DNA from: Deferribacteres bacterium | GTDB lineage: Bacteria; Nitrospirota; Thermodesulfovibrionia; UBA6902 | DNA: 34,561 nucleotides | NCBI GenBank assembly: GCA_013152795.1 | Contig: JAADFS010000192.1 | Location: 1 to 34,561, forward strand | Direction: 5' to 3' | Shown here: piece after piece, positions 122-19,842 of the stretch | Layout of the letters: each line of letters starts with the position of its first letter | Numbering within the stretch: position 1 is the stretch's first letter | Made by a program: the position numbers and the translations under genes | The notes under the pieces: generated by a model | Databases searched by the model: none | Seen by the model: only the letters and a program-made list of their open reading frames with translations | Told to the model about the DNA's origin: nothing

Positions 122-448
122 TTAAAGCAGGGAATCTATCTTGGATTTGAGCTGGGCCTTGGGTACGGCTCCGACTATCTGGTCAGCCACCTTGCCGTCT
201 TTAAAAAACATGAGCGTCGGTATACCCCTGATATTATACCGGCTTGCAAGATCAGGATTCTCATCCGTGTTAACCTTTGCAAACAGCACCCTGCCCTCGT
301 ATTCCTTTGCAAGTTCTTCAACAACAGGAGAGACTATCTTGCACGGCCCGCACCATGTTGCCCAGAAGTCAACCATTACAAGATTCTGCGCCTTAAGAAC
401 CGTCTCCTCAAAATTATCGCTCGTAACACTTGCCACTGTCTCTGACAT
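122..448 (-). CDS. trxA: Thioredoxin
   Basis: 108 aa with [10 protein letters not shown] active site and the IRGIPTL cis-Pro motif; GAGGAGG SD upstream. Confidence 0.97.
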
Positions 449-481: not shown

Positions 482-511
482 ATTATATTTCTTAAATAAT
501 GTCTTTGTCAA
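482..511 (-). promoter_or_regulatory. Sigma70-type promoter for trxA-trxB
   Basis: Minus strand TTGACA (511-506), 18-nt spacer, TATAAT (487-482): both hexamers match consensus. Confidence 0.75.
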
Positions 512-524
512 TTTCCCGTGTCTC

Positions 525-2540
525 CTAAACCCCTGCTGTCTCCGATTCCTTCAGCCACAGGAGCCTTGAATGGTCGAGGACGGATCTGTTAAGCGCTTCG
601 ATTATATCTGCCGGGCCGGTGTCAAGACCCTGCTTTTCCTCGAACGGCCTGAATACAGGTTCAGCCTCTTCAGGGCCGCCCTTTGTTTTCGGGGTGATAT
701 CTTTTAAAGGCTCCCCGATTGCCTTTGAAAGATTGATAATGATATCACGGTGCTGCTTGGAAACGCCCAGAGGGTCGACAACCTTCCTGACGTCCTTAAC
801 CTTGCCCAGGTAGTTGATTATTGTGCCCTTTGATTCAAGGTATGTTGCGGCCGGCAGCACTATATCGGCCTGTTTTGCAAAATCCGTAAGGTAAGATGTC
901 TGGGCTATGATAAACTTTGCGCCGGGTCTCTTGGAGACAGGGATTTCCCCTACTGCATAAAGCACATCCATGTCACCGGAGATCATCTCCTTGTAGGTCT
1001 TCCCGTCCGCGGGCAGGCCTGCTGCGGCAATGCCCCTTGCATTGGCCTCATACGGCACTGCAACGACCTTGACATCGATCAGCAGCGAGATATTCCTTGA
1101 GGCACTGAAAAGGGACGGGGCGCAGAATATTGCGGGTGACCCCGCACCGGCCAGTATGGCGGCGGCCTTTTCAATATCTTCCGTTACCGCAAGACCTGAG
1201 ACAGCGGCCTCCAGTTCCTTGCCGCCTGTCTTCCCCTTGTCGATCAGGCCCCTTGCTATGTGCGCAAGCGTTGTCGCCTCCTCAGCCTTGATGCTTACTG
1301 TTGCTGCACGGCCTATCCTGATTTCCGCCGAGTTTATGACAATAAGTTTGGCGCCTCTTGAGACCCTCTTTCTTATGCCTGCATCAAGGGCCGGCAGTAC
1401 CCTGCTCCACTGCGAGGGGTCAAGTCCTGCAAGGACGATTGCATCCGTGCCGTCAAGATCAACGGTATCGGAGAGGTTCAGGGAATCGGCATCTGCATAA
1501 AGACTCGCTGTTGTATCCACATTGCCCGTCCGGATTACGTCAGAGGCGAATCTCGAAAGTGCAAGGGCATCCTGGTTGAGTATGCCCGCTGTGCTTATGA
1601 TCCCCGCACCGGCACCTGCCTGCTTTAATCTCTCGGCTGCGGTTTCCAGTGCATCTTTCCATGTGGTCTCCTGCAGCTCGCCGTTGACCCTTTTCATCGG
1701 GACAGTGACCCTTGCGTCCGACGTCACCGCGTCGAATCCGAACCTGCCGGTTGCGCATATGTATCTTTCAGCCGACCCGTCAGCCGCACCAGTGTTTATC
1801 TTTATGATTTCACCGTCTCTTTCACTGGCGATTATATCGCAGCCGCAGCCGCAGGAAAGACAGGCGGATGCGGTCTTCGTATATTCCCACTCCCTGCCCT
1901 TTCTCCACCTGCCGGCTTCAAGGAGGGCATTGACAGGGCATACGTCGATACAGCTCCCGCAGAAAGTGCAGTCGGATTTCTGCAGCGGCCTGTCCATGGC
2001 AGTGACAACCTTTGCACCGACTCCCCTTCCCATGAATTCAAGGACGCTCGTGCCCTGTTCCTTGCACACCCGCACACATCTTCCGCATATGATGCAGTAG
2101 TCAGGGTCTCTCCTGATAAACGGATTTTCCTCATCAACAGGGTATCCGAATTTCTTCCTGCTGAAGCTTGATTCCTTTATTCCAAAGTCATACGCATACT
2201 GCTGCAGAGTGCATGCACCGGCCTTTGTGCAGGTCATGCAGTCAAGCGGATGCATGGAGAGGATAAGGTCTATCACGAATTTCCTTATCTCCTCTAACTT
2301 TTCGGTTCTGGTGTTGACGACCATCCCTTCCTTTACCTTTGTGGTGCAGCCTATCAGCGGGGCCTTCATACCCTCCACCTCAACAAGACACATCCTGCAT
2401 GCGCCTATTCCCCTCATCCCCTTCAGGTAACAGAGGTTCGGAATGTGGATTCCCGCTGTCTCGGCAGCATCAATGAGATTGGTTCCCGCCGGAACACGCA
2501 CTGCCTTGCCATCTATTTTCAGAGTAACTTTTTTTGACAT
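525..2540 (-). CDS. NuoG/HydA-N-terminus-like multi-Fe-S subunit with degenerate molybdopterin-oxidoreductase fold (BfuA-like)
   Basis: N-terminal [2Fe-2S] (LC..GACRMC..C), HxxxCxxCxxxxxC cluster, two ferredoxin-type [4Fe-4S] motifs (CIICGRCVRVC, CTFCGSCIDVCP), CLSCGCGC...C cluster, then a shortened Mo-oxidoreductase-like body (ADIVLPAATYLESKGT). No H-cluster motifs and no C-terminal molybdopterin-dinucleotide-binding domain. Confidence 0.8.
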   Translation of the reverse strand: MSKKVTLKIDGKAVRVPAGTNLIDAAETAGIHIPNLCYLKGMRGIGACRMCLVEVEGMKAPLIGCTTKVKEGMVVNTRTEKLEEIRKFVIDLILSMHPLDCMTCTKAGACTLQQYAYDFGIKESSFSRKKFGYPVDEENPFIRRDPDYCIICGRCVRVCKEQGTSVLEFMGRGVGAKVVTAMDRPLQKSDCTFCGSCIDVCPVNALLEAGRWRKGREWEYTKTASACLSCGCGCDIIASERDGEIIKINTGAADGSAERYICATGRFGFDAVTSDARVTVPMKRVNGELQETTWKDALETAAERLKQAGAGAGIISTAGILNQDALALSRFASDVIRTGNVDTTASLYADADSLNLSDTVDLDGTDAIVLAGLDPSQWSRVLPALDAGIRKRVSRGAKLIVINSAEIRIGRAATVSIKAEEATTLAHIARGLIDKGKTGGKELEAAVSGLAVTEDIEKAAAILAGAGSPAIFCAPSLFSASRNISLLIDVKVVAVPYEANARGIAAAGLPADGKTYKEMISGDMDVLYAVGEIPVSKRPGAKFIIAQTSYLTDFAKQADIVLPAATYLESKGTIINYLGKVKDVRKVVDPLGVSKQHRDIIINLSKAIGEPLKDITPKTKGGPEEAEPVFRPFEEKQGLDTGPADIIEALNRSVLDHSRLLWLKESETAGV

Positions 2541-2630
2541 CTGCTCCTCCTGTCTATCATATCCGGAAACAGGGAGACCCCCGCCGCCGTTTCGAAATTT
2601 ATTTTAAGGGCGTATTGCGATACACCCCTG

Positions 2631-3230
2631 CTATGTTCCAACTGTTTCAGCCTCTTTGACTTTTGCATCAACAACTGCAATAGCCTTTTCCGGACACGCC
2701 GGGACGCATTCGCCGCACTTGACGCATTTGGTCTGCCTGATCTCAAACGGCTGGTACCCGCTGATAAACGCCCGTCTCTTTTCGCCATAGATAGCGCCGT
2801 ATTTGCAGGCCGTCAGGCATTCGCCGCACATGGTGCACTTCGCAGTGATAATCGTGTATTCAATGTAGGCCCCGCATGTCCGCTCCGGACAAATGCCTTC
2901 GACATGCCTGTCGAAGTCTCCTGTATCGAGCCACTGAAGCATAAACCGTGCAGTATCTTTTCCCTTTTTACACATGGAGCCGTCCAGCATATCAGAGGCG
3001 ATCCTTCGGAGTTTGGACAGATCCTCCTCCGCGGCCTTCCCCTCAATCATATTATTCAGAATCACCCTTGCCTCATAGCTCCCCATGGAGCAGGGAAAGC
3101 ACTTGCCGCACATCGGCCCGGCGAGGAATTCCGTCATATAGAAAAGTGCCCTTTCCAAAGGGCATTTCTTTTCATCCGCCGCCTTTTTGATGTCGTCTGT
3201 CTTTATGAGTCTCTTATCTGTCATGGCCAA
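2631..3230 (-). CDS. Stand-alone NuoF C-terminal-like Fe-S protein (NADH_4Fe-4S motif plus 2x[4Fe-4S] ferredoxin)
   Basis: CGKCFPCSMG...SMC (NuoF N3-type cluster), H-x4-C-x4-C, CTMCGECLTAC and CVKCGECVPACP. Confidence 0.8.
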   Translation of the reverse strand: MAMTDKRLIKTDDIKKAADEKKCPLERALFYMTEFLAGPMCGKCFPCSMGSYEARVILNNMIEGKAAEEDLSKLRRIASDMLDGSMCKKGKDTARFMLQWLDTGDFDRHVEGICPERTCGAYIEYTIITAKCTMCGECLTACKYGAIYGEKRRAFISGYQPFEIRQTKCVKCGECVPACPEKAIAVVDAKVKEAETVGT

Positions 3231-3233
3231 ACC

Positions 3234-5573
3234 TCAGTATATCGCCTCTGCCATGTAGATAATCTCCGGCAGGACGTGGGCAACCAGGTCTCTGTAAGTG
3301 ACCATTCCTATGAGCCTGCCCTTTTCAACAATCGGCAGATGGCGTATCTTTTCTTTTGAGACAACCTGGATTGCGGCATTGATCTCTGTTGAAGGTTCAA
3401 ATGTTATGATCTTCGTGGTCATTAAATTCCCGATGGGCTCTGCCTTCAGGTCAACATTCTTGTGGACATAGCGGACTACGTCCCTTTCGGTAAAAATACC
3501 GGCTATTTTCCCTTCTTCGTCAACCACTATCACGTCGCTTATATTCTTCTCAGCCATAAGCCTTACGGCTGCATCCGCAGTCTGGTCCCGGGTAACGGTG
3601 GTCAACTCATCGGGTTTTTTCTTTAAGATATCTCTAAGGACCATTCTCGCCCTCCTGTCTATAAGTTCTATTGTTTCCGTAGGCACCTTGAATTCTTCCT
3701 CAAGTATTACATGCCTCTGTTTCTTTATCATAACGGCATTGATCGGACATGCATTATAACAGGCCATGCACTGTGTGCAGGCATTGCGGTCGATTATATA
3801 TCTCTTTCTCGTCTCGGTAACCGCATTGAACGCGCAGGCCTCTTTGCACAGTCCGCACCTGATGCACGCCGCCTGATCGATGACGAATGCCCCCATGCCG
3901 GTGCATGCCTTTGCACGGCAGTACTTTTCATAGACATGCTCTTCATACTCCTCCCTGAAATACTTGATCGTGCTCAGCACAGGGTTGGGCGCGCTCTGGC
4001 CGAGACCGCAGAGTGAGGCCTTCTGGATGTACTGACCGAGCTCCACGAGCCTGCGGATGTCGCCCTGTTCACCCCTGCCCGATGTGATCCTGTCGAGTAT
4101 CTGGAGCATCTGGTAGGTACCTATTCTGCACGGCGGGCATTTGCCGCAGGATTCGGACTGTGTAAATGAGAGGAAGAACTTGGCCACATCAACCATACAT
4201 GTATCTTCATCCATCACCACCATTCCGCCCGAGCCCATCATGGAGCCCACGGATGCAAGGGAATCAAAGTCTATCGGCAGGTCAAGGTGTTCGGCAGGTA
4301 TACAGCCGCCTGAAGGGCCGCCCGTCTGCACGGCCTTGAACTTCTTATCACCGAGCATACCGCCGCCGATGTCAAATATTATCTCCCTCAGGGTCATGCC
4401 CATGGGTACCTCGACCAAGCCGGTGTTCTTGACCTTGCCGGTAAGTGCAAACACCTTGGTACCGGGTGATGTCTTGGTTCCGATGGACGTGAAGTAGTCG
4501 GAGCCCTTTTCAACGATCACGGGGACGCACGCATAGGTTTCAATGTTGTTGAGATTGCTCGGATAGCCCCACGGGCCGCCCCCTGGTTGTGAAAGCCTCG
4601 GCGGCCTGGGCCTCGGGAAACCCCTCTCACCTTCGATGGAGGCAACAAGGGCCGTGGACTCACCGCATACGAACGCCCCTGCGCCTTCCCTTATATCCAC
4701 TGTAAAACTGAAGTCCGTGCCGAGGATGTTTTTCCCGAGCAGCCCCAGTTCTTCGGCCTGTTTTATTGCTATCCTGAGGTTCTGAACCGCCAGGGGGTAT
4801 TCATGCCTGACATATATAAATCCGTACTGCGCGCCTATTGCATATGCACACAGCGCCATTCCCTCAAGGAGGCTGTGGGGGTCGCCCTCCATAATAGACC
4901 TGTCCATGAATGCGCCCGGGTCGCCTTCGTCACCGTTTGCGATCACAAACTTGATATCCCCCGGCGCCGACTTGGTATGGGCCCATTTCTTGCCTGCAGG
5001 GAATCCTGCGCCGCCCCTTCCCCTGAGATTCGCCCTGTCGACTTCCTGAAGAACCAGATCAGGTGTCATTAAGGCCAGGGCCTTTTCCAGCGCGGCGTAT
5101 CCCCCGACCGCGAGGTAATGATTAATATTGCACGGGTCGATCACCCCGTTGTTTCTCAGGGCGATCCTTATCTGTTTCTTATAAAACGGGATATCCGTCA
5201 TAACGGGTATGGGCTCGCTGAGGATGCCGTCACGGTAAAGGCCCTGCCTGTAGGGCATGTTGCCCAGCATGGAATAGCTCATGATGGAAGATACATTTTC
5301 GGGCCTGGTCCTCTGGTAGAAGATGTTCATGGGTTCCACCTTGAGCACCGGACCTTTCTGGCATATCCCCTGGCAGCCTGTCCTGACTATCTCCACCTCA
5401 ACGCCGCTGTCCGCCGCCTCTTTTTTAAACGCATCTATCACCTTGTGGGCGCCCGTTGCAGTGCATGCAGTTCCACAGCATACCCTCGCCCTGAGGGCGT
5501 CGGGCTTGAATGTGGTATCTTTCAGGCGCTCTCTGAACTCGTAAAGCTCTTTTGGACTGTTAAGTTTCTTCAT
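3234..5573 (-). CDS. NuoF/HydB-like FMN/NAD(P)-binding subunit (BfuB-like) with C-terminal CBS pair
   Basis: N-terminal thioredoxin-like [2Fe-2S] (CCGTAC..CQGIC), LRGRGGAGFP, NGDEGDPGAFMDR, GAGAFVCGESTAL, GGPSGG, SCGKCPPCRIG, SLCGLG, two ferredoxin motifs, then about 130 aa of CBS tandem (IAGIFTERDV, IRHLPIVE, LIGMVTYRDL). Confidence 0.9.
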   Translation of the reverse strand: MKKLNSPKELYEFRERLKDTTFKPDALRARVCCGTACTATGAHKVIDAFKKEAADSGVEVEIVRTGCQGICQKGPVLKVEPMNIFYQRTRPENVSSIMSYSMLGNMPYRQGLYRDGILSEPIPVMTDIPFYKKQIRIALRNNGVIDPCNINHYLAVGGYAALEKALALMTPDLVLQEVDRANLRGRGGAGFPAGKKWAHTKSAPGDIKFVIANGDEGDPGAFMDRSIMEGDPHSLLEGMALCAYAIGAQYGFIYVRHEYPLAVQNLRIAIKQAEELGLLGKNILGTDFSFTVDIREGAGAFVCGESTALVASIEGERGFPRPRPPRLSQPGGGPWGYPSNLNNIETYACVPVIVEKGSDYFTSIGTKTSPGTKVFALTGKVKNTGLVEVPMGMTLREIIFDIGGGMLGDKKFKAVQTGGPSGGCIPAEHLDLPIDFDSLASVGSMMGSGGMVVMDEDTCMVDVAKFFLSFTQSESCGKCPPCRIGTYQMLQILDRITSGRGEQGDIRRLVELGQYIQKASLCGLGQSAPNPVLSTIKYFREEYEEHVYEKYCRAKACTGMGAFVIDQAACIRCGLCKEACAFNAVTETRKRYIIDRNACTQCMACYNACPINAVMIKKQRHVILEEEFKVPTETIELIDRRARMVLRDILKKKPDELTTVTRDQTADAAVRLMAEKNISDVIVVDEEGKIAGIFTERDVVRYVHKNVDLKAEPIGNLMTTKIITFEPSTEINAAIQVVSKEKIRHLPIVEKGRLIGMVTYRDLVAHVLPEIIYMAEAIY

Positions 5574-5607
5574 ATCTTCACCTTAATTAATATTTAATGT
5601 AATTAAG

Positions 5608-6090
5608 CTATCCGTCGCCGCTTTTAATATCCTCGACTATCTCATCAAGCCTTTTCATGTCTATTTCACCGACGATGCTCTCATTGACCGTCGCCACCGG
5701 TGCAAGGCCGCAGCAGCCGATGCATCCCACGGTCTCAAGGGTCATCGCAAGATCAGGCGTTGTCTCTCCTTCATCTATCTTGAACTCATCCTTGATCCTG
5801 TCGAGAACTTTATCCGCCCCCCTTACATGGCAGGCGGTGCCCGTGCAGACGCGTACTATCTTCCTGCCCCGCGGCGTGAAATAGAACTGTTTGTAAAACG
5901 TCGCTGTGCTGTAAACATCTGACAGCGGTATATCCAGCTTTTTAGATAACCTTATCAGGTCTTCCTCCGGCAGATAATTGCGTTCCTTCTGTATCTGCTG
6001 GAAGGCATGTATGAGGATGCCCCTTTTCTTCTGTGTATCGGTCAGAATATCGCCGACATGTCCTATGACTTCATCAACCTTGAGATTCAC
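5608..6090 (-). CDS. NuoE/HydC-like [2Fe-2S] subunit (BfuC-like)
   Basis: VCTGTACHVRG and GCIGCCGLAP motifs, plus ATFY. Start reassigned to GTG at 6090, preceded by GGAGGT; it overlaps the cooS stop. Confidence 0.9.
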   Translation of the reverse strand: MNLKVDEVIGHVGDILTDTQKKRGILIHAFQQIQKERNYLPEEDLIRLSKKLDIPLSDVYSTATFYKQFYFTPRGRKIVRVCTGTACHVRGADKVLDRIKDEFKIDEGETTPDLAMTLETVGCIGCCGLAPVATVNESIVGEIDMKRLDEIVEDIKSGDG

Positions 6091-8086
6091 TGATACCTCC
6101 CACTCCGGCATGGGCTGCGCCGGCTGCTGATCTTTCCAGTTCCCTCCTGGCAGCCATGTCCATAAGGACCCTTTCGGCGCCGAACTTTCCGGGTTCGTAT
6201 TTTCTCAATTTGAGCCTCTCCCTCGCCTTGTCTATGTAGTCAAGTGTCATCGCAAGAATCTTTTCAGGATCCGGCTCGAAATGAAGCGCTCCCATGTAGC
6301 GCTCAAACCATACTTCGGTCATGATCCTTTCAACTTCCTTGCTCGCTCCGACCGGTGACTCCCCGCCCATGATTACGGGAACACCGGATGCCGCGAAATA
6401 TGTACCGATTGCAATGGCCTTCTCGGACATCCACTCCGGAGCGATTCCAACGGCAGGCATTCCGCCGATCTCATCGGACAGGCCCCCTTCATGCGCCATG
6501 GCCGTTGCTATCGTGAGTATCCTCGAGTTGTCTACGCACGCGCCGAGGTGAAGGATGGGCGGGATTCCGATTGCCTCACAGACCTCCCTGAGGCCTGGGC
6601 CGGCATTTTCAAGCGCCATCTCGGGCGTTAAATATCCGGCGGTCCCGCATGCTGCAGAGCCGCAGCCGGTTGAGACGATGAGAACGTCATTTTTTATAAG
6701 CTCGGTTGCAAGGTATTTGTGAATGCTTGTGGCCTGCACCCTCGGGTTGTCGCATCCTACCAGCCCGACCACGCCCCGGATCCTTCCGGCCATGATGGCG
6801 TCATTCAAAGGCCTGAAGGATGCACGCCATTTTCCGCCCTGCATGTATTCGATATACTCATGGGAGAAACCTGCTATCAGCGGCGTCTTGCGGGTGATAT
6901 GGCTTCCCTCGCTTGTCCTGTTCGGGAAATTGTCTATGGCCATTCTTATAATCTTCTCCGCCGTCTCCCTTGCATGGTGCTCGTCGTATTCAACGTGGAC
7001 TGCCCCGGGTATCTTGGCCTTGGGGCTGGTGGTGATGATCTTTGTATGGAATTTCTCCGACAGCTTGGCGATGGCAGGCATGATGCACTGCACATCAACC
7101 GTCATGGCGTCGATCAGACCAGTCATAATACCCAGTTCCTGGTTTGTAAACCCGCCGGCAGTGGGTATCCCGTGCCTCATGAGGACCTCGTTTGCAGTGC
7201 AGCACATGCCGCCGAGATTGATGCCCTTCGCCCCCTTGGATTTTGCGTATTCAATCATCTCCGGCGAGGATGCCACATCAACGATTATCTCGGCAAGGGT
7301 GGGCTCGTGGCCGTGGACGATGAGGTTGACCTCGTCCTCCTTGAATATGCCGAAGCTGGATTCGGCCCTGAGGGGTTTGGGTGTTCCGAAGAGGATGTCC
7401 GTGATGTCCGTGGAGATCATGCAGCCGCCCCAGCCGTCCGCCAGTGCGGTCCTTAATCCCTGTGCCAGCAGGTGATCGGCCTCGTGGTCCACACCCACAC
7501 TTGTCCGGTGCATGGCCTCCACCACCTCCCTGTCTATGCCGCGCGGGGCAATCCCCCATTTCCTCCATCTCTCCTGCGTCTTCTCGGGAGCCCTTTTGTT
7601 GTAATTCAGTTCCCCTGTCTGGCGCCCGAAATCCTCAAGGAATTTAAGGGCGACATCTTTTGCAACATCATTGACAGGCCTGCCCTCGAATTCTATTCCG
7701 AGTATACCGGCAACCTTGTACAGTTTTTTGACGTCGGTTATCTTGAAGTCCTTTGCCGTACCCTCGGCGGCCGCCAGGAGGGTCATGGCCATGTCTCTTG
7801 CGTGATCAGAGTGGGCGGCGGTGCCTGCCGCTATCATCCTTACGAGGTTTCTTGCAGCCACCGTGGCAAGCGATGCGCCGCATACCCCTGCCGCCTTTTC
7901 CTCGGCGTTCCGGCCCACGAGCCTGCACGGGCCCATATGGCATACCCTGCAGCAGGCCCCGGTCTCGCCTATGGGGCACTGCTTCAGTTTCTCCGCACGC
8001 TCAAAGCATGTCTCAAGATGGTGGGACTCACCCCATTCTATTATCTCTTCTGCTGATGTGCTTGCGCTTTTTGTCACTTTATCCAT
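6074..8086 (-). CDS. cooS: Anaerobic Ni-Fe carbon monoxide dehydrogenase catalytic subunit (CooS/AcsA)
   Basis: D/B-cluster Cys (CPIGETGACCRVCHMGPC), AHSDH, and C-cluster ligands GHEP, MCCTANE, DVQC, GCDN, TGCG, GACVDNSR; also WMSEKA. Confidence 0.97.
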   Translation of the reverse strand: MDKVTKSASTSAEEIIEWGESHHLETCFERAEKLKQCPIGETGACCRVCHMGPCRLVGRNAEEKAAGVCGASLATVAARNLVRMIAAGTAAHSDHARDMAMTLLAAAEGTAKDFKITDVKKLYKVAGILGIEFEGRPVNDVAKDVALKFLEDFGRQTGELNYNKRAPEKTQERWRKWGIAPRGIDREVVEAMHRTSVGVDHEADHLLAQGLRTALADGWGGCMISTDITDILFGTPKPLRAESSFGIFKEDEVNLIVHGHEPTLAEIIVDVASSPEMIEYAKSKGAKGINLGGMCCTANEVLMRHGIPTAGGFTNQELGIMTGLIDAMTVDVQCIMPAIAKLSEKFHTKIITTSPKAKIPGAVHVEYDEHHARETAEKIIRMAIDNFPNRTSEGSHITRKTPLIAGFSHEYIEYMQGGKWRASFRPLNDAIMAGRIRGVVGLVGCDNPRVQATSIHKYLATELIKNDVLIVSTGCGSAACGTAGYLTPEMALENAGPGLREVCEAIGIPPILHLGACVDNSRILTIATAMAHEGGLSDEIGGMPAVGIAPEWMSEKAIAIGTYFAASGVPVIMGGESPVGASKEVERIMTEVWFERYMGALHFEPDPEKILAMTLDYIDKARERLKLRKYEPGKFGAERVLMDMAARRELERSAAGAAHAGVGGISESQG

Positions 8087-8160
8087 ATATCCTCCATAAT
8101 TCGTGAATCGTGTCCGGTCGGCGTGTCCGTAAAAATGCTCAACTCAGACGGACAACCTCT

Positions 8161-10359
8161 TTAGAACATCGGTTCCATCTCAAGCGCCGGATGCCCGACA
8201 CTTGCAAGATATTCCAGAAGCTTTTCAGAATCTTCCGCGATAGTCTCATCCGCAATCTTATCCATTAAATCAGGCACCCCCTCTTCCTCGCACCTCTTTT
8301 TGAAATCCTCGGCGATTCTCTCCTTGAGATTCTTTGTCATCCAGACTATTCTCCTGATTCCGCCGTCTGCATAGAGGAACTTGCGGCTTGTAATGAAATT
8401 CACCCCTATCCCCATAAAACCGGGGTTCTGCGTGCCTCCACCGACTGTACCGGCCAGTGTGGAGAATTTCATTCCAACAGGGGTCATGCCTGTATGGCCT
8501 CTCTGCACGAGCATTACCCCGTTGGCCTCAGGGATAATTGCAACGATACACTCAAAACAGCCGCAGGATGTCATGGGATTATCCATGATTGTGTACAGAT
8601 TGAGCGATTCAACCGCACCCGCGGAATTGGCCTTGAGGTATTCATCAACACCGGCCCACCTGCCTGCCTTGGCGTCCAGCACCTCGCCCTTCTTTATGGG
8701 CTGGTTGCCGCCTGTGGGGTCTATCTCGAAGGCGGCCTTTGTGTCCAGCCAGTTGTAAGCGCCGCACAGACCCAGGCGCTCCGGGCTTATAACGCATACG
8801 TGGGACGGCGCGAACGACTGGCACAGGAGGCAGGAGTAATAGGTATCCACTGATTCGTCCGTGAGGCCGGCAAGCCTGTGGTCCCTTTCCTTGTAGACGG
8901 CCCTTGCCTGTTCCTGGAGTTCGAGGACGTCCTTTTCATCGAAATAAAGTGTGACCTGGACCTTATCGACAATCGCCTTGAACCTGTTGTGTGTCATGGT
9001 GTTGTGTATTATGCCGATATGCTCCAGCGTGATGCCGTCCTTGTACGCCTGTTTGCTGATTCTCATCCATACGATGTCGCGTTGTCCCATGTGCCACAGG
9101 CCCTGTGCTTCGTTTATGTTATGATGGAGCTTTCTCTCGATAATGGCCTCAAAGTCCTTCTGCATCTTCCGGCCTGCAACGTCTATGACAATCCCGAGCG
9201 GCATCTGCCCGCCGGCCTTGTATCTCTCTTCTATATCAGTGCCCACAAGCACTACTTTGCCGTCTTCGATCTCATCCATTTCCCTTGTTCTTACCCATTC
9301 AAATGCAGGTGTGCGGTTGCCGCCGAACTCTATGAACATGTCTTCTTTCCTGATCCTCTCGCCCTCGAATGCAGGGCCGTAGGAGACGGGGATAGGCGGT
9401 TTCTCAACCGTTACCTTAAGCCCTCTGACCTCAAAGGCCCTCTGTACGATCTTGCTGTGGTCGAGTTCTTTTTCGACATGCTCGTAGGTGCATACCCCTG
9501 TCGGGTGGATGACCGGGACATCGGTATCGCATATTGCGGGGTATCCCATATTGATGGCTCCGGCACCCGTGGACCACTTGACGTCGTCAAGCTCGCCCAG
9601 GACAAGGGCGAAAGCAAAGACCCTGTCTTTTGTATATTTCAGATGCGCCTTGTAATCCCCGGGCTTGTTGCCGCCGAAGATCAGGGACGCCCTGATGGAC
9701 CAGTCGAGCGCATAGAGTGTATGTTCTGTTTTCGTGCCGAGAGGGACGATATATGTATCCCAGCCGAGCTCGACATTCTTCCTCAGAAGTTGCCTCGTGA
9801 CGCTGTCGCCTCCCGATTCCCCGGAGAGGAATATGAGGATGTTCTTTTCCTGCAGTTCCCTCACGATTTTCACCGCGGTTTCATCATCAGGGGCCGCGCC
9901 GATGATGGCTGCAAAACCCGGCATCCTGCCGTCAACAAGCTGGATGCCCAGGTTTCTCTGAATGGTGTCCGTGATGAAGCCGTTGTATACATAACCTGTT
10001 TCAGGGTCTGTATCCGGCTCAAGCCCCTCAATATATCTCAGGGCCAGTATGATCTCCTCGCAGAAAAGGGTTGCCATGCCCGAATCCAGGGCCTCTCCGA
10101 GATATGGTTTCCAGAGCTTTTCCTCCGGCTCCTCGTGCAGCATCTCCCTTGCCATTTCCAGGGCAACCTTCATGTCGGCAAGTGTCTTGACAGGGAATGC
10201 CGTCATTGCATACACCAGCGGAAGGTAAAAAGCAGTGTCCGGAAACTCAAACACGAAGTCCTTTCCTTTTTCCGCAATCGCCTTATCAAGCATCTCCTCC
10301 GCCGTCCTGAAGAGACTGTGTGAAGCCCTTATTGCAGCAGAGGCAATTATCTTTGACAT
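8161..10359 (-). CDS. acsB: Acetyl-CoA synthase (bacterial-type, 732 aa)
   Basis: FPDTAFYLP N-terminal domain, GPAFEGERIRK, A-cluster ligands CLLCQSFAPSHVC..GLCG and TSCGCFEC. Confidence 0.97.
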   Translation of the reverse strand: MSKIIASAAIRASHSLFRTAEEMLDKAIAEKGKDFVFEFPDTAFYLPLVYAMTAFPVKTLADMKVALEMAREMLHEEPEEKLWKPYLGEALDSGMATLFCEEIILALRYIEGLEPDTDPETGYVYNGFITDTIQRNLGIQLVDGRMPGFAAIIGAAPDDETAVKIVRELQEKNILIFLSGESGGDSVTRQLLRKNVELGWDTYIVPLGTKTEHTLYALDWSIRASLIFGGNKPGDYKAHLKYTKDRVFAFALVLGELDDVKWSTGAGAINMGYPAICDTDVPVIHPTGVCTYEHVEKELDHSKIVQRAFEVRGLKVTVEKPPIPVSYGPAFEGERIRKEDMFIEFGGNRTPAFEWVRTREMDEIEDGKVVLVGTDIEERYKAGGQMPLGIVIDVAGRKMQKDFEAIIERKLHHNINEAQGLWHMGQRDIVWMRISKQAYKDGITLEHIGIIHNTMTHNRFKAIVDKVQVTLYFDEKDVLELQEQARAVYKERDHRLAGLTDESVDTYYSCLLCQSFAPSHVCVISPERLGLCGAYNWLDTKAAFEIDPTGGNQPIKKGEVLDAKAGRWAGVDEYLKANSAGAVESLNLYTIMDNPMTSCGCFECIVAIIPEANGVMLVQRGHTGMTPVGMKFSTLAGTVGGGTQNPGFMGIGVNFITSRKFLYADGGIRRIVWMTKNLKERIAEDFKKRCEEEGVPDLMDKIADETIAEDSEKLLEYLASVGHPALEMEPMF

Positions 10360-10406: not shown

Positions 10407-10835
10407 CTAATGGCGCTTCCTGCACTTCCGGCATAAGCCGTAAAACTCGATACTGTTGCCGAGCAATTCAAATCCGTGTGTGAGCTCTTCCGGCACGTCC
10501 AGCTTGAAATCCGTGTGCAGATCGAGAATCTTCTTGCACTTAATGCACAAAATATGGTGGTGTTTGGTGGTGTCCGGGTCATATCTTTTCTTGCCGGAAT
10601 CTATCTTGAGCTCCTTCACGCGTTGTTTGTTTTTCAGCGCCTCAAGCGTGTTGTAAACCGTTGCAAAAGACATTGTGGGATAGTGTTTCAGCACCGCCTT
10701 GTAAATGTCTTCGGCAGACGGATGCGACTTGTTGCCCCTCAGAAAATTCAGTATGGCAAGCCGCTGGGGCGTTAATTTAATCTGAAGTCGTCTGAATTCT
10801 TTCATGGTTTTGATTTTTCTTCTGTCATTCCTCAA
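10407..10835 (-). CDS. Fur-family transcriptional regulator, PerR-like (start TTG 10835 or ATG 10805)
   Basis: LTPQRLAIL, HPSAEDIY, SFATVYNTL, HHHILCIKC and C-terminal CRKC structural Zn pairs. Confidence 0.92.
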   Translation of the reverse strand: MRNDRRKIKTMKEFRRLQIKLTPQRLAILNFLRGNKSHPSAEDIYKAVLKHYPTMSFATVYNTLEALKNKQRVKELKIDSGKKRYDPDTTKHHHILCIKCKKILDLHTDFKLDVPEELTHGFELLGNSIEFYGLCRKCRKRH

Positions 10836-11081: not shown

Positions 11082-12422
11082 CTATGCACGGTTTTTCAGA
11101 AAAGTCGGAATGGCGTTCGCCTCCCTCGGGCCGACCGTTATCTTCCATCCCTCGAGCTTGTCCTCGAGCGCGCCGCTGAGGATTGCAACCTGACCCGGCA
11201 GGATAAGCTCCTTGTGGCTGATCTGGTTCTCCACCCCGCTTTCCTTTATGAACTGCGCGATCTTTGCGGCCGTGAACTTACCGGCAGCCCAGGCAGTCAG
11301 AACGGAAAGACCCTCGCAGTCCATTACGGCAAGCCGTGCCGGCACCCGGCTGTTTTCAATCTCACCCGATACAATGAAATAGGTGAGCGAGAAATTCGTT
11401 GTAATCATAAGCGGTGAATCCGGACCCGGCTCTCCGATTTCGTAAATCTTCTGCTCCACCTGCATCGGCACCTGCGGGTCGGTGTAGAGATTCTGCCTCA
11501 GCGTGAAGAGCGCGAGATTCTTCCACTTTTCAATACTGCCGAGTATGACTATTGAGGCGTATTTGGCGATTGCCACAGAGGCAATGGATGCCTCGAAAAG
11601 GGGATCATCCCTCAACACGCTGTTTATCACCGGATATCCGAGCGGTTTGAAGTTCTTCTTAAGCGCAGAACGCCTGATCTGCGTATTGTGCTCTATGATC
11701 TCCCTTGCCGTCTTTGCGCCGGAGTCAAGTACGATATCCTCCACGCCGAGCCCCTTGATCTTTTCAGTGAGCACCGAGAGGGCCTCCGGACCCTGCGCGC
11801 ATGCAACAAGGGGAACACCGTGAGCCTTTGCAACAGCGGCCATGGCTTCGGCGTTTCCGTCATCAGCTCCGTAGATCAGCGGCTTTCTCTCTGCAACGGC
11901 CTTTACGGCGGCCTCGGCCGCAGCGACATCCTTGCAGTTCAGTATGATGGCCGCCTCCGGCGCCTTCTCCGCCACAAGCCTTACGGCAGCCTCATATCTG
12001 GCGGCGTCGCCCGAAGCATATTCCACGGATATGGCATCAACCCTCAGTTTCTGCCCCACCCGGTCGATTTCGGAAGAGGCCACTTCGGATGCCTTTTCCG
12101 CAAGTTCGCCGTCGCTTAAGCTGTCTTTAACATTAAGCGCCAGGGCACAGGGATTGATGAACTTCTTCTCATGCCTGAACAGAACGGTCTCTCCGCCCAG
12201 CTTTACAGCCTTTTCCCCGGTGCCGAGCTCGAATGACCTTATGGGCGGCGCCGACGCCTCGCCGAGGGTTTTCTTTGCCTCCTCCGACACATCAGGACAC
12301 GCTGAAAGCTCCACGCCTCCCTGCGCGAGTTTCATTGCAAAGGCCAGACATGTGGGAAATCCGCATTTCTTGCAGTTTGTCTTCGGAAGAAGCTTAAATA
12401 TCTGAATTCCGGTTAATGCCAT
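11082..12422 (-). CDS. acsC: Corrinoid iron-sulfur protein large subunit
   Basis: LPKTNCKKCGFPTCLAFA [4Fe-4S] domain, GGETVLFRHEK, YTDPQVP, TTNFSLTYF, GLSVLTAWAAGKF, GPREA. Confidence 0.97.
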   Translation of the reverse strand: MALTGIQIFKLLPKTNCKKCGFPTCLAFAMKLAQGGVELSACPDVSEEAKKTLGEASAPPIRSFELGTGEKAVKLGGETVLFRHEKKFINPCALALNVKDSLSDGELAEKASEVASSEIDRVGQKLRVDAISVEYASGDAARYEAAVRLVAEKAPEAAIILNCKDVAAAEAAVKAVAERKPLIYGADDGNAEAMAAVAKAHGVPLVACAQGPEALSVLTEKIKGLGVEDIVLDSGAKTAREIIEHNTQIRRSALKKNFKPLGYPVINSVLRDDPLFEASIASVAIAKYASIVILGSIEKWKNLALFTLRQNLYTDPQVPMQVEQKIYEIGEPGPDSPLMITTNFSLTYFIVSGEIENSRVPARLAVMDCEGLSVLTAWAAGKFTAAKIAQFIKESGVENQISHKELILPGQVAILSGALEDKLEGWKITVGPREANAIPTFLKNRA

Positions 12423-12442: not shown

Positions 12443-13384
12443 TCAAACCAGTTCACCGATGGTCTTTTCAACGGTCTCTATCGCCGCAGGATGCCTCATG
12501 ATAAGGAGGTTTGTCCCGGCCAGAAGCATCGCCGTTGCGGTAATCGCCTCCCAGGCAATGCCCCTCTCACGGAGCGCCCCCCATTCAGGAACATCCGCTT
12601 CCGGGGCAACGGTCTCCTTTATCTTCCAGACATACATGCCGACATCCCCGAGTATCGGAGGCTGCATGGTCGGATCATTCTGGGCAAGCGCGGCAAGCCG
12701 TATCCTCTCCATCACTGAATAGGTATACTCCAGGCCGTACCCGAGCGCAGAGCACATCGGGTCTGTAATGAGCTTTTCTTTGCTGAAACCCATCTGGGTT
12801 ATCAGGATGTTCAACTGTTTTGCAAGATTGATGTCAAGCTCCGACATTGCTATCAGTTTATGATTATGCGCGAGGGCCGCGGCCACTATGGTTTTGTAAT
12901 TGCCCTCCTGGGCCTTTCCGATTATGCAGTTGTACCCGCTTGCAGCCTCGGCTGCGGCAACCAGCACCGTGGAGTCCTTTTCAATGTGGTTGGAGCCGAG
13001 TATGACAAGGGGCACATCAACAGCCGCCAGCACATCCTTGACGGTCTTGGCGGCATCCTCGGCAGACCTGTCGTCCCTGTCTGGATGGGTGCTCAGAAGC
13101 CTGAGCGCAATGGCCTTTGCATTCAGGACATCCTGGCAGTGTTTGGCCCATGCAACAGGATCGCCGCTTACATCCTTGTATGCCTCTTTTACTGTATCCG
13201 GCCAGTCATCGGGCGGACAGTCCTGAATCTCATAGGCAATCACGGGCTTGTTGGGCTGTTGTCCTTCAAAGGACAGGAACGGAAGGGTGTTTTCACCGCC
13301 TACTGTAACCGCCCTGTCGTCTTTGCCGAAATCAAAGCTTAGGACTTTACCGGTATATGACTCCTTAGGAATAACGTAAGACAT
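12443..13384 (-). CDS. acsD: Corrinoid iron-sulfur protein small subunit
   Basis: VGGENTLPF, DINLAKQLN, LGYGLEYTYSVMERIRLAAL, MRHP motifs. Confidence 0.96.
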   Translation of the reverse strand: MSYVIPKESYTGKVLSFDFGKDDRAVTVGGENTLPFLSFEGQQPNKPVIAYEIQDCPPDDWPDTVKEAYKDVSGDPVAWAKHCQDVLNAKAIALRLLSTHPDRDDRSAEDAAKTVKDVLAAVDVPLVILGSNHIEKDSTVLVAAAEAASGYNCIIGKAQEGNYKTIVAAALAHNHKLIAMSELDINLAKQLNILITQMGFSKEKLITDPMCSALGYGLEYTYSVMERIRLAALAQNDPTMQPPILGDVGMYVWKIKETVAPEADVPEWGALRERGIAWEAITATAMLLAGTNLLIMRHPAAIETVEKTIGELV

Positions 13385-19825: not shown

Positions 19826-19842
19826 CCCTGAGAGAGATCTGC

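What the first reader, a model, noticed from the sequence alone, without database searches (positions are those of the whole stretch)
525..10359. CODH/ACS directly coupled to a hydrogenase-less HydABC/Bfu-type electron-bifurcating module
Seen: acsB-cooS-nuoE-like-nuoF-like-FeS-nuoG-like are co-oriented, and the nuoE-like start (GGAGGT + GTG 6090) lies inside the end of cooS. The NuoF-like protein has the extra N-terminal [2Fe-2S], C-terminal 2x[4Fe-4S], DEGDPGAFM, GGPSG and a C...H-x5-C-x4-C site. Established: these features characterise bifurcating HydB/BfuB subunits rather than respiratory NuoF. Seen: the A-like subunit has no H-cluster and no intact Mo site. Inference: CODH itself is the catalytic input/output, giving a CO/CO2-linked complex that couples ferredoxin and NAD(P)(H). 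Such complexes have been predicted from genomes, but I know of no characterised example with this subunit set.
Basis: partly seen in the sequence, partly recalled or inferred. Interest (0 to 1): 0.85.

Follow-up and report, generated by a model that had tools for sequence, protein, structure and literature searches.

The report
CODH gene tied to electron-bifurcating module
In this sulfate-reducer-like Nitrospirota genome the carbon-monoxide dehydrogenase of the Wood-Ljungdahl pathway sits next to a hydrogenase-type electron-splitting flavoprotein module that has no catalytic site of its own, which suggests an untested enzyme linking CO/CO2 to both NAD(H) and ferredoxin.

Summary
On the minus strand lie acsE-acsD-acsC-fur-acsB-cooS-bfuC-bfuB-FeS-bfuA. 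The bfuC start (GTG 6090) lies 17 nt inside cooS. BfuB carries every sequence hallmark of bifurcating HydB/BfuB subunits: 751 bits to NiFe-HydB against about 361 to NuoF. BfuA keeps 20 Fe-S ligands but has no H-cluster domain, no Cys/Sec-His and no pterin cap. "FeS" is a stand-alone copy of the HydB C-terminal arm.

The link to cooS is conserved. In 80 of 95 class genomes where both genes were listed, they are co-oriented within 6.3 kb. In a second Nitrospirota lineage, cooS left acsB and sits in a self-contained bfuC-bfuB-FeS-bfuA-cooS operon (6 of 6 loci). These BfuB proteins form one clade (SH-aLRT 100).

The genome has its own nuoF-G-H, and no hydrogenase was found.

A "Codh-Bfu" class was already predicted in 2022, for Firmicutes and with a different architecture, and I found no characterised example. 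So this is a new variant of a predicted kind.

Physical association with CooS and bifurcation itself remain inferred. Some relatives have CODH/ACS without the module, and one has NfnAB in its place.

The parts
13443..14231 (-). acsE-like methyltransferase (pterin-binding), first gene of the acs cluster
   Evidence: PF00809 E 1e-20. Orthologues lie upstream of acsD in 10 of the 16 related Nitrospirota loci L007-L022.
12443..13384 (-). acsD (small subunit of the corrinoid Fe-S protein)
   Evidence: PF03599 E 9e-47.
11082..12422 (-). acsC (large subunit of the corrinoid Fe-S protein)
   Evidence: PF03599 E 7e-99 plus PF04060. A terminator-like hairpin lies at 11038-11025 just downstream (it is a consensus match only, and the total count was not above the shuffles).
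10407..10835 (-). Fur-family regulator inserted between acsC and acsB
   Evidence: PF01475 E 7e-30. It is present at this position in only 3 of 16 related loci (L007, L011, L014). Promoter-like sites lie at 10983-10955 and 10951-10923.
8161..10359 (-). acsB (acetyl-CoA synthase subunit)
   Evidence: NF040764 1017 bits against a cut-off of 800; also PF19436, PF03598 and PF18537.
6074..8086 (-). cooS/acsA (Ni-CODH catalytic subunit). Its C-terminal ~45 aa (nt 6077-6214) are a conserved tail that no solved CODH covers.
   Evidence: TIGR01702 592.7 bits against a cut-off of 478. The Cys/His columns C37, C45, C46, C49, C54, C69, H260, C295, C334, C445, C475 and C517 are invariant in 23 sequences. 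Assigning them to the D, B and C clusters is from memory. No PDB CODH aligns beyond about aa 635. The tail is conserved in 21 of 21 Nitrospirota sequences. It is also present in the module-less genomes G003 and G398, whose CooS align through aa 653.
6074..6090 (-). 17-nt overlap of the cooS 3' end with the bfuC start (GTG 6090, preceded by GGAGGT at 6100-6095)
   Evidence: Read directly from the sequence. The same overlap occurs in L013 and L014, and an 11-nt overlap in L007.
5608..6090 (-). bfuC (NuoE/HydC-like, [2Fe-2S] C1 cluster)
   Evidence: PF01257 E 5e-45. The Cx4C...Cx3C cysteines are seen in the translation. The NuoE equivalog NF005722 scores 140.9 against a cut-off of 141.
3234..5573 (-). 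bfuB (HydB-like, 779 aa). Domains in order: N-terminal 2Fe-2S, FMN/NAD(H) site, SLBB, B1 [4Fe-4S], Cys3His site, 2x[4Fe-4S], then a CBS pair.
   Evidence: Pfam domains; motifs in the translation. Best PDB matches are 7t2r_B 751 bits, 8a6t_B 728, 7q4v_B 700 and 8oh5_B 691, against NuoF chains at about 361. It belongs to a clade of 25 rows with SH-aLRT 100.
3237..3656 (-). CBS-pair domain fused to the C-terminus of BfuB (aa ~640-779)
   Evidence: PF00571 E 7e-26, two stretches. A ~170-aa tail is present in 12 of 23 clade members with a complete C-terminus; the other 11 have 16-20 aa. Homologues in the protein database are named 'CBS domain-containing protein'.
2631..3224 (-). FeS subunit (197 aa): a stand-alone paralogue of the HydB/BfuB C-terminal arm (B1-like [4Fe-4S], Cys3His site, 2x[4Fe-4S])
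   Evidence: PF10589 plus Fer4 domains. It aligns to T. maritima HydB residues 465-625 at E 1e-24. Sixteen Cys/His are invariant in 48 sequences. There are 582 homologues of similar length, and all source names in the 120 rows listed are Nitrospir*/Thermodesulfovibrio/Sulfobium. It is found in 286 of 390 class genomes.
525..2540 (-). bfuA (NuoG/FdhA-like, 671 aa): 2Fe-2S, His-ligated 4Fe-4S, 2x4Fe-4S, a Molybdop_Fe4S4 cluster, and a degenerate pterin domain without a cap domain
   Evidence: Pfam. NuoG TIGR01973 scores 343.6 against a cut-off of 470. All 20 cluster ligands are invariant in 14 sequences. The FdsA Cys-His aligns to Tyr-Ala. There is no PF01568 or PF02906 hit.
122..448 (-). Thioredoxin, probably a separate transcription unit and not part of the module
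   Evidence: PF00085 E 9e-37. A 12-of-12 sigma-70 consensus lies at 511-482 between bfuA and trx. No trx hit appeared next to bfuA in any of the 80 loci.

Best explanation
The six genes cooS-bfuC-bfuB-FeS-bfuA, here preceded by acsB, most likely encode one functional unit: a 'Codh-Bfu'-type enzyme.

Proposed composition. The Ni-CODH, which is also the CODH partner of acetyl-CoA synthase, serves as the catalytic third-substrate site of a flavin/Fe-S electron-bifurcating BfuBC core. BfuA has lost any catalytic site and acts as an Fe-S wire. The extra FeS subunit is a copy of the ferredoxin-reducing arm of BfuB. I propose it as the adaptor between BfuA and the CODH B/D clusters, much as NuoI bridges NuoG to the Q-module in complex I.

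Proposed reaction (reversible): 2 CO + 2 H2O + NAD+ + 2 Fd(ox) <-> 2 CO2 + NADH + 2 Fd(red) + 3 H+.

Thermodynamics. CO inside CODH/ACS is held at very low activity. The CO2/CO couple then sits near -400 mV rather than -520 mV, in the same range as H2/H+ in HydABC.

Physiological consequence. In the oxidative direction (acetyl-CoA cleavage in a dsrAB-carrying anaerobe), the enzyme would split CO electrons between NAD+ and ferredoxin. In the reductive direction, NADH could pay for half of the CO2 reduction.

CBS pair. The CBS pair on BfuB would gate the ferredoxin arm in response to an adenosyl ligand.

What is shown and what is inferred. Shown: gene content, motifs, conserved linkage and phylogeny. 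Inferred: physical complex, electron path, stoichiometry, direction and the CBS role.
For: (1) BfuB has all sequence features that the structural papers give for bifurcating B subunits: FMN/NAD site, B1, the Cys3His B2 site, the B3/B4 dicluster arm and the N-terminal B5 domain (features as described in PMC11829005, passages read). It scores 751-628 bits to the full-length B subunits of solved Bfu-family complexes (hydrogenases, Stn/Nfn transhydrogenases; one truncated HydB chain 617) against about 361 to NuoF.

(2) BfuA has no catalytic site, so the module needs an external third-substrate enzyme.

(3) Linkage in related loci. Fourteen of 16 related Nitrospirota loci carry acs..acsB-cooS-bfuC-bfuB, followed by the FeS gene in 13 and by bfuA in 12 (L020 holds a second bfuB copy where FeS would lie and L016 ends inside FeS).

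(4) Linkage across the class. I cross-matched the rows listed: 43 of 51 genomes have cooS and bfuA co-oriented on one contig, 3.0-6.3 kb apart. I cross-matched for a further 44 genomes: 37 have FeS 2.9-5.7 kb downstream of cooS. Together that is 80 of 95.

(5) The linkage survives rearrangement. G040 has bfuB-FeS-bfuA-(2.7 kb)-acsEDCB-cooS. Family f25, in another class, has bfuC-bfuB-FeS-bfuA-cooS in 6 of 6 loci fetched.

(6) In f25, acsB lies on another contig or 360-580 kb away in 5 of 5 genomes. No other Prismane-family gene lies near acsB. The flanks of the operon in L109, the one f25 locus whose flanks I annotated, are unrelated genes, HlyIII and pilMNO. So cooS stayed with bfu rather than with acsB.

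(7) The linked BfuBs form one clade of 25 rows with SH-aLRT 100 and a stem of 0.44.

(8) Family-level co-occurrence. f11 has CooS in 0 of 21 genomes and FeS in 1 of 21. Most other families have both in similar numbers.

(9) Start-stop overlap of cooS and bfuC.

(10) Independent Bfu-CODH/ACS clusters occur in Pirellulales (bfuC-bfuB-short bfuA-cooS-acsB), in an actinomycete and in a Dehalococcoidales MAG.

(11) The genome has its own nuoA-BC-D and nuoF-G-H. No [NiFe] or [FeFe] hydrogenase was found; the MAG is 85% complete.
Against: No physical or expression evidence exists.

Two of 16 loci (L021, L022) have no acs or cooS within 10 kb upstream. A second module copy in G306 (L118) is also unlinked. 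Fourteen of 95 cross-matched genomes have the two genes on different contigs. All 14 are draft assemblies, and at least G294 and G306-C11 break inside the module.

CODH/ACS occurs without the module. In f7, CooS is in 58 of 68 genomes but FeS in 34 of 68. In f16 the figures are 17 and 11 of 19. G398 has nothing redox-related after cooS.

G003 has nfnA-nfnB there. L009 and L016 have nfnAB between cooS and bfuC. NfnAB is a free-standing enzyme that acts on redox pools, so adjacency may mean co-regulated redox balancing rather than docking.

G342 has the module, yet its family f11 has no CooS match at E<=1e-150 in any of 21 genomes.

At standard potentials CO (-520 mV) can reduce ferredoxin directly, so bifurcation is needed only if CO activity is very low. 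That is an assumption.
Confidence: 0.55

Rival explanations
1. The BfuCB-FeS-BfuA module is a free-standing soluble enzyme. It is only co-regulated with the Wood-Ljungdahl genes. It would balance the NADH and ferredoxin pools using a third partner other than CooS. That partner could be a second ferredoxin, flavodoxin or other redox protein that docks on the FeS subunit, or an enzyme encoded elsewhere (Fdh, MetF/Hdr).
For: NfnAB is a free-standing bifurcating transhydrogenase. It occupies the same position after cooS in G003 and lies between cooS and bfuC in L009 and L016. Module copies without nearby cooS exist (L021, L022, L118). The FeS subunit copies the ferredoxin-binding arm of HydB, so it could bind a soluble redox protein. 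Wood-Ljungdahl clusters in other organisms also hold enzymes that are not in complex with CODH (hdr-metVF; PMC6344411 passage).
Against: In family f25 the operon holds cooS as its only catalytic gene, and it lies away from all other acs genes. Linkage is kept through three different gene orders. metF lies on other contigs of this genome. The thioredoxin downstream is not conserved.
Confidence: 0.22
2. It is a non-bifurcating NAD(P)+-reducing CODH. Electrons from CO run through FeS and BfuA to FMN and simply reduce NAD(P)+. This would be functionally like CooS-CooF-FNOR. The extra BfuB clusters would be vestigial or regulatory.
For: CO is a stronger reductant than NADH, so a linear path is thermodynamically easy. 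The same genome already has a cooS-cooF-FAD/NAD oxidoreductase set on contig C46, which shows that NAD-linked CODHs are used here.
Against: All ligands of the B2, B3, B4 and B5 sites are kept in nearly every clade member. According to PMC11829005 (passage read), non-bifurcating homologues lack these sites, and deleting B3/B4 abolishes bifurcation in T. kivui HydABC. A second NAD-linked CODH would be redundant with the C46 set.
Confidence: 0.15
3. The module is a detached NADH-input (N) module of respiratory complex I, a 'Nuo-Bfu'. It would dock by its NuoG-like subunit onto an 11-subunit Nuo complex.
For: BfuA is NuoG-like over its whole length: TIGR01973 343.6 bits, and it aligns to Nqo3 residues 62-608. 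Schut et al. 2022 assign Nitrospirae BfuBs (their clade 39) mainly to Nuo-Bfu (passage read).
Against: This genome has nuoA-nuoBC-nuoD on C83. It also has nuoF (which ends after the N3 domain, without the dicluster arm)-nuoG-nuoH on C205. So complex I has its own N-module. The window module is never next to nuo genes in the loci examined. All three subunits fall below the NuoE/F/G equivalog cut-offs.
Confidence: 0.04

Closest known systems
Codh-Bfu (predicted Type 2 Bfu enzyme; Schut et al. 2022, PMC9304861; 4 sequences, Firmicutes such as Acetohalobium arabaticum and Clostridium cellulovorans; not characterised)
   Same: cooS is encoded in one cluster with bfuA, bfuB and bfuC. CO/CO2 is proposed as the third substrate of a BfuBC bifurcating core. 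The rationale is the same: at very low CO the couple becomes mid-potential (passages read).
   Different: In the Firmicutes clusters the CODH genes sit between bfuB and bfuA, BfuA is short (lacking the A3 and A5 clusters), and two further Fe-S subunits are present. Here cooS lies before bfuC or after bfuA. BfuA is long and NuoG/FdhA-like, with five cluster motifs and a dead pterin domain. The extra subunit is a BfuB C-terminal-arm paralogue. BfuB often carries a CBS pair. The CODH is the ACS-associated one. The host phylum is Nitrospirota. I had no Firmicutes reference sequences, and the paper's supplements were closed, so the two BfuB clades could not be compared directly.
NiFe-HydABCSL of Acetomicrobium mobile (PDB 7t2r/7t30) and FeFe-HydABC (8a6t, 7q4v, 7p5h)
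   Same: These are the best structural relatives of BfuB (751-628 bits over aa 1/30-614). The domain order and cluster motifs are the same. In NiFe-HydABCSL, as here, BfuA is a wire and catalysis sits in added subunits.
   Different: There is no hydrogenase subunit in the window, and none was found in the 85%-complete genome. CooS takes that place. The FeS subunit and the CBS pair are additions.
NAD-dependent formate dehydrogenase FdsABG (R. capsulatus, PDB 6tg9/6tga) and Fdh-Bfu
   Same: BfuA's best PDB match is FdsA (247 bits, aa 5-407), including the Molybdop_Fe4S4 cluster. The same genome has three other BfuB genes beside long NuoG/FdhA-like subunits that carry molybdopterin domains. This suggests that the module descends from an Fdh-type Bfu.
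   Different: The catalytic Cys-His is replaced by Tyr-Ala, part of that loop is deleted, and the cap domain PF01568 is missing.
CooS-CooF-FNOR (CODH with a ferredoxin-like subunit and an FAD/NAD oxidoreductase)
   Same: It also links CO oxidation to pyridine nucleotides through Fe-S subunits. A set of this kind is present on contig C46 of the same genome.
   Different: It uses an unrelated flavoprotein (Pyr_redox_2), with no NuoF/NuoE core and no bifurcation features.
Respiratory complex I N-module (NuoEFG) and the predicted Nuo-Bfu
   Same: The three protein families are homologous, and BfuA has a NuoG-like remnant domain.
   Different: BfuB has extra cluster domains. The module is not in a nuo operon. 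The genome has separate nuoF-G-H genes.

Membership tests
Bfu (HydABC-type) electron-bifurcating family: B subunit | NuoF-type FMN/NAD(H) core with the B1 [4Fe-4S] cluster | tested here: met
   PF01512 E 2e-40, SLBB, PF10589 E 7.5e-34. The CGKCPPC...C motif is present in all 25 clade rows tested.
Bfu (HydABC-type) electron-bifurcating family: B subunit | C-terminal arm with two [4Fe-4S] clusters (B3/B4). PMC11829005 says this arm is required for bifurcation and is absent from non-bifurcating homologues. | tested here: met
   Fer4 domains at aa 564-614. Two CxxCxxCxxxC motifs occur in 23 of 25 clade rows; the two exceptions are a contig-end truncation and a frameshifted copy.
Bfu (HydABC-type) electron-bifurcating family: B subunit | B2 Cys3His (Zn) site and B5 N-terminal thioredoxin-like 2Fe-2S/Zn site | tested here: met
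   H-x5-C-x4-C occurs in 23 of 25 rows. The N-terminal Cx4C...Cx3C occurs in 24 of 25 rows; the exception is N-truncated at a contig end. PF01257 matches aa 28-99. Metal identity cannot be tested.
Bfu (HydABC-type) electron-bifurcating family: B subunit | Closer to solved bifurcating B subunits than to NuoF | tested here: met
   751, 728, 700, 691 and 628 bits against about 361 bits for NuoF chains.
Bfu family: C and A subunits | BfuC with the C1 [2Fe-2S] cluster; BfuA with an N-terminal [2Fe-2S] and [4Fe-4S] chain | tested here: met
   PF01257 E 5e-45. The 20 BfuA ligands are invariant in 14 sequences.
Bfu family | Coupled reduction of NAD+ and ferredoxin by a third substrate | not testable with these tools
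   This needs an anaerobic enzyme assay.
Codh-Bfu as defined by Schut et al. 2022 | cooS in the same gene cluster as bfuABC | tested here: met
Codh-Bfu as defined by Schut et al. 2022 | CODH genes sandwiched between bfuB and bfuA; Type 2 BfuA lacking the A3/A5 clusters; found only in Firmicutes (their clade 49) | tested here: not met
   cooS lies before bfuC or after bfuA. BfuA keeps five cluster motifs, including Molybdop_Fe4S4; mapping these motifs to A3/A5 is my inference. The hosts are Nitrospirota. Clade 49 membership could not be tested because no reference sequences were available and the supplements were closed.
Respiratory complex I N-module (NuoE/F/G) | Scores above the NCBIfam equivalog cut-offs, and a location in a nuo operon | tested here: not met
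   NuoF TIGR01959 452.2 against 558.65. NuoG TIGR01973 343.6 against 470.05. NuoE NF005722 140.9 against 141. nuoF-G-H and nuoA-BC-D lie on other contigs.
Formate dehydrogenase alpha subunit (Mo/W-bisPGD) | Catalytic Sec/Cys-His and the pterin cap domain PF01568 | tested here: not met
   Tyr-Ala at the FdsA Cys-His position. No PF01568 hit. TIGR01591 132 bits against a cut-off of 666.
[FeFe]-hydrogenase HydA | H-cluster domain PF02906 | tested here: not met
   There is no hit in BfuA and none in the whole 85%-complete genome.
Bacterial CODH/ACS (AcsA/CooS plus AcsB) | Equivalog-level matches and conserved cluster ligands | tested here: met
   AcsB NF040764 1017 bits against 800. CooS TIGR01702 592.7 against 478. 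The Cys/His columns are invariant.

The most novel reading that the evidence does not exclude
Across anaerobic Nitrospirota, the CODH of the Wood-Ljungdahl pathway would be the catalytic head of a dedicated flavin/Fe-S bifurcating machine: a CODH(/ACS)-BfuCB-FeS-BfuA supercomplex. CO channelling would keep the CO2/CO couple at mid potential. NADH plus reduced ferredoxin together would then drive CO2 reduction, or CO oxidation would charge both pools. The module would have evolved from a formate-dehydrogenase-type Bfu whose pterin site died. A duplicated HydB arm (FeS) would serve as the docking wire. A CBS adenylate sensor would throttle the ferredoxin branch. This would be a new way to pay for the most reducing step of the oldest carbon-fixation pathway.
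Probability: 0.35. Interest if true: 0.82.

Novelty: new variant of a known kind. Interest (0 to 1): 0.62.

Why it matters
CO2 reduction to CO is the most reducing step of the Wood-Ljungdahl pathway. How non-acetogenic, energy-starved anaerobes supply or dispose of those electrons is poorly understood.

If CooS really is the third-substrate head of a Bfu core, three things follow:
- Half of the electrons for the carbonyl branch could come from NADH, which changes ATP and ferredoxin budgets in models of subsurface Nitrospirota.
- The family of characterised Bfu enzymes would gain a CO-linked member.
- The FeS arm paralogue and the CBS fusion would give natural handles for studying how the ferredoxin branch of Bfu enzymes is wired and gated.

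The unit is widespread. The FeS subunit is in 286 of 390 class genomes, so it is an ecologically relevant target and not a curiosity of one MAG.

Tried and rejected
Complex prediction. I sent CooS (alignment A1, 23 rows) and FeS (alignment A2, 48 rows) to complex prediction. The verdict was 'no answer' (score 0.00, controls not run). This is neither for nor against binding. CooS was sent as a monomer although its D-cluster lies on the dimer axis.

Expression. The look-up of sequencing runs on window:525-10359 listed no RNA holder. The best DNA share was 0.20. I therefore did not use read laying.

CooS tail. I considered the C-terminal tail (aa ~625-670) as a Bfu-docking element. I rejected it as Bfu-specific because the module-less genomes G003 and G398 keep it.

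Thioredoxin as third partner. Rejected: it is not conserved next to bfuA in any of the 80 loci, and a consensus promoter separates it from bfuA.

MetF as partner. metF lies on other contigs.

N-module hypothesis. Rejected; see the rival explanations.

Labelling other BfuB loci. My H-cluster motif regex flagged only 1 locus, so I did not use it. The contexts of non-CODH BfuBs in the tree are therefore unlabelled.

Promoter and terminator scan. Counts were not above the shuffles (12 against 11.9; 19 against 14.0), so single sites are only hints.

Literature. Searches found no characterised CODH-Bfu. They found genome-level mentions only:
- PMC9304861, passages read.
- PMC6344411, one passage: COG1034/1894/1905 in the Wood-Ljungdahl-pathway context of Ni-CODHs.
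- PMC6305446, one passage: nuoEF close to CODH/ACS in NPL-UPA2.
- PMC5736913, PMC7325909 and PMC10203281, passages read: nothing on this cluster.
The supplements of PMC9304861 (Table S1 and the clade figures) were closed. They may show whether this Nitrospirota clade was already counted under their 'Nuo' clade 39 or among the unassigned clades.

Tree. I left out 2 of 94 BfuB rows shorter than 500 aa (an L114 fragment and the split L094 N-part) and added the window's own BfuB, giving 93 rows. I used the quick method with LG+G4. Two long-branch joins were flagged, neither inside the focal clade.

Choice of f25 loci. I picked the six f25 loci from the f25 rows for their long contigs, not at random.

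Full report
**What is in the window**

The window is contig C192 of a 2.77-Mb, 324-contig MAG that is 85% complete. Homologues are named Nitrospirae, Nitrospirota or Thermodesulfovibrionia. The genome has dsrAB.

On the minus strand lie, in order:
- acsE 14231-13443
- acsD 13384-12443
- acsC 12422-11082
- a Fur-family gene 10835-10407
- acsB 10359-8161
- cooS 8086-6074
- a NuoE-like gene (bfuC) 6090-5608
- a NuoF-like gene (bfuB) 5573-3234
- a 197-aa Fe-S gene 3224-2631
- a NuoG-like gene (bfuA) 2540-525
- a thioredoxin gene 448-122

AcsB and CooS pass their NCBIfam equivalog cut-offs: 1017 against 800, and 592.7 against 478.

**The observation**

- GGAGGT lies at 6100-6095, then 4 nt, then GTG at 6090. 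The cooS stop is at 6076-6074, giving a 17-nt overlap.
- The nearest relatives keep this overlap: 17 nt in L013 and L014, 11 nt in L007.
- BfuB has the N-terminal thioredoxin-like 2Fe-2S segment, DEGDPGAFM, GGPSG, CGKCPPC, H-x5-C-x4-C and two CxxCxxCxxxC motifs.
- These motifs are kept in nearly all 25 members of its clade. The exceptions are truncated or frameshifted copies.
It is present in 12 of 23 clade members with a complete C-terminus.

**What the subunits are**

*BfuB.* It scores 751 bits to NiFe-HydB (7t2r), 728 and 700 to FeFe-HydB chains, and 691 to the Stn B subunit. NuoF chains score about 361. PMC11829005 (passages read) states that non-bifurcating homologues lack the B2-B5 sites and that deleting B3/B4 abolishes bifurcation. 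All these sites are present here.

*BfuA.* It keeps 20 invariant Fe-S ligands in a 14-sequence alignment. It has no H-cluster domain and no pterin cap domain. The catalytic Cys-His of FdsA aligns to Tyr-Ala. It is a wire, not an enzyme.

*FeS.* It aligns end to end with the C-terminal arm of T. maritima HydB (residues 465-625, E 1e-24). Sixteen metal ligands are invariant in 48 sequences. It is therefore a stand-alone copy of the B1-like, Cys3His and B3/B4 arm. Its 582 similar-length homologues carry only Nitrospirota-type names.

**Is the link to CODH real?**

Related loci. Among 80 genome loci fetched with BfuB, the 16 Nitrospirota loci (64-82% identity) include 14 with acs..acsB-cooS-bfuC-bfuB, followed by FeS in 13 and bfuA in 12. 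Two of the 16 (L021, L022) have no acs or cooS gene within 10 kb. L009 and L016 carry a 4.3-kb insert between cooS and bfuC holding nfnAB, a CBS protein and DUF3786.

Across the class.
- CooS orthologues occur in 320 of 390 genomes.
- FeS occurs in 286 of 390.
- By hand I cross-matched the coordinates listed. Forty-three of 51 genomes have cooS and bfuA co-oriented on one contig, 3.0-6.3 kb apart. One (G040) has another order. Seven have them on different contigs.
- Searches gave a further 44 genomes: 37 linked and 7 on different contigs.
- Together that is 80 of 95, drawn from at least 13 families.
- At least two of the 'different contig' cases (G294, G306-C11) break inside the module at a contig end.

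**The most telling case**

In family f25, which belongs to another class of the phylum, the order is bfuC-bfuB-FeS-bfuA-cooS in 6 of 6 loci fetched.
- In L109, the one locus whose flanks I annotated, the flanking genes are unrelated: HlyIII and pilMNO.
- acsB lies on another contig or 360-580 kb away in 5 of 5 genomes.
- No other Prismane-family gene lies near acsB.

So cooS moved away from its classical partner gene and stayed with the module.

G040 has a third order: bfuB-FeS-bfuA, then 2.7 kb, then acsEDCB-cooS.

In a 93-row BfuB tree, the Nitrospirota CODH-linked proteins form one clade of 25 rows (SH-aLRT 100, stem 0.44). Bfu genes next to CODH/ACS genes in a Pirellulales, an actinomycete and a Dehalococcoidales MAG fall elsewhere in the tree. 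Those MAGs also use short BfuA forms of 301 and 201 aa. Bfu cores have therefore been recruited to CODH/ACS several times.

**Rivals**

*Detached complex I N-module.* This is unlikely. The genome has nuoA-nuoBC-nuoD on C83. It also has nuoF (without the dicluster arm)-nuoG-nuoH on C205.

*Hydrogenase or formate dehydrogenase partner.*
- No [NiFe] or [FeFe] hydrogenase was found in the 85%-complete MAG.
- The three other BfuB genes each sit beside their own long NuoG/FdhA-like subunit with molybdopterin domains, on C128, C96 and C268.
- The C128 and C268 subunits lack the catalytic Cys-His in alignment A3.

*Free-standing, co-regulated enzyme.* This is the serious rival.
- Many relatives have CODH/ACS without the module: in f7, CooS is in 58 of 68 genomes but FeS in 34 of 68.
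- G003 has nfnA-nfnB directly after cooS.
- Unlinked module copies exist (L021, L022, L118).

*Linear, non-bifurcating NAD-reducing CODH.* This is also possible, but it does not explain why all the bifurcation-specific sites are kept.

**Mechanism proposed (inferred)**

The electron path would run from the CooS C-cluster to the B and D clusters. From there it passes to the three clusters of the FeS subunit, then along the BfuA chain, and finally to [B1-FMN-C1]. Electron pairs would split at that site between NAD+ and, via C1 and B3/B4, ferredoxin. The reaction would be reversible.

At about 1e-5 atm CO and 0.1 atm CO2, the CO2/CO couple is near -400 mV. This is my calculation from the standard value of -520 mV given in PMC9304861, Table 1. 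That value is comparable to H2/H+ in HydABC. Schut et al. use the same argument for their predicted Codh-Bfu.

The CBS pair sits just after the ferredoxin arm. It may gate that arm in response to an adenosyl ligand. This is an inference from the general role of CBS domains, which I recalled.

**Comparison with what is known**

Schut et al. 2022 predicted a Codh-Bfu class: 4 sequences, Firmicutes only, cooS between bfuB and bfuA, and a short Type 2 BfuA. Inoue et al. 2019 noted NuoEFG-type COGs in the Wood-Ljungdahl context of Ni-CODHs. Suzuki et al. 2018 noted nuoEF near CODH/ACS in one MAG. I found no characterised example.

The Nitrospirota unit differs in five ways:
- gene order;
- a long, dead-pterin BfuA;
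- the FeS arm paralogue;
- the frequent CBS fusion;
- the use of the ACS-associated CODH.

It is a new variant of a predicted kind.

**Limits**

- The complex prediction gave no answer.
- No RNA runs were listed.
- The supplements of PMC9304861 were closed.
- The cross-matching of coordinates was done by hand from the rows that the tools listed (at most 150 per call). Genomes whose rows were not listed were not counted.

**Verdict**

Novelty: new variant of a known kind. Interest: 0.62.

Noticed in passing
window 14409-15605 (+): Divergent from acsE lies a 398-aa protein with an MtrA domain (PF04208, E 7e-39) fused to PterinBD-DUF4346. It is a methanogen-type methyltransferase-A-like protein beside a bacterial acs cluster, followed by parA and parB. 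Its role is unknown.
   Followed up: no
window 10407-10835 (-): A Fur-family regulator sits between acsC and acsB. A terminator-like hairpin (11038-11025) and promoter-like sites (10983-10923) lie before it. This suggests that fur-acsB-cooS-bfu is a transcription unit separate from acsEDC. The gene is present at this spot in only 3 of 16 related loci.
   Followed up: partly
window 482-511 (-): A perfect 12-of-12 sigma-70 consensus (TTGACA, 18 nt, TATAAT) lies between the bfuA stop and the thioredoxin gene.
   Followed up: no
window 22829-26319 (-): A glycyl-radical enzyme (826 aa, PFL-like plus Gly_radical) is followed by a 153-aa protein with no Pfam family and by a 178-aa activase-like protein with Fer4 and partial Radical_SAM domains. 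Its substrate is unknown.
   Followed up: no
window 17381-22377 (+): Three consecutive large proteins carry beta-propeller (SBBP/BNR) repeats and HYDIN/ASH-type Ig-like domains. The region has lower GC (0.46) than its surroundings.
   Followed up: no
G000 contigs C268, C128, C96 (loci L094, L092, L093): The genome has three more BfuB genes.
- On C268 BfuB is split into a 427-aa N-part and a 187-aa C-terminal arm. That natural split mirrors the stand-alone FeS subunit.
- The long NuoG/FdhA-like subunits on C128 and C268 also lack the Cys-His of true formate dehydrogenases in alignment A3.
- On C96 the A-like gene is interrupted after 354 aa, possibly by a selenocysteine codon, and a cNMP-binding protein sits between B and A.
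   Followed up: partly
L119 (G003:C13) 6086-8353; L009 6351-8656: NfnA-NfnB genes (DHODB_Fe-S_bind; Fer4_20 plus Pyr_redox_2) lie directly after cooS in a module-less relative. In L009 and L016 they lie, on the opposite strand, between cooS and bfuC, together with a stand-alone CBS protein and DUF3786.
   Followed up: partly
L015, L111, L114: In these three loci the acsB, cooS, bfuB, FeS or bfuA reading frames are broken into several pieces. This may be assembly indel error or decay. I did not look further.
   Followed up: no
G000 contig C46 (L097) 1228-4942: A second, monofunctional CODH set is present: cooS (640 aa, without the C-terminal tail), a CooF-like protein, and an FAD/NAD oxidoreductase with a rubredoxin-reductase C-terminal domain.
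   Followed up: partly
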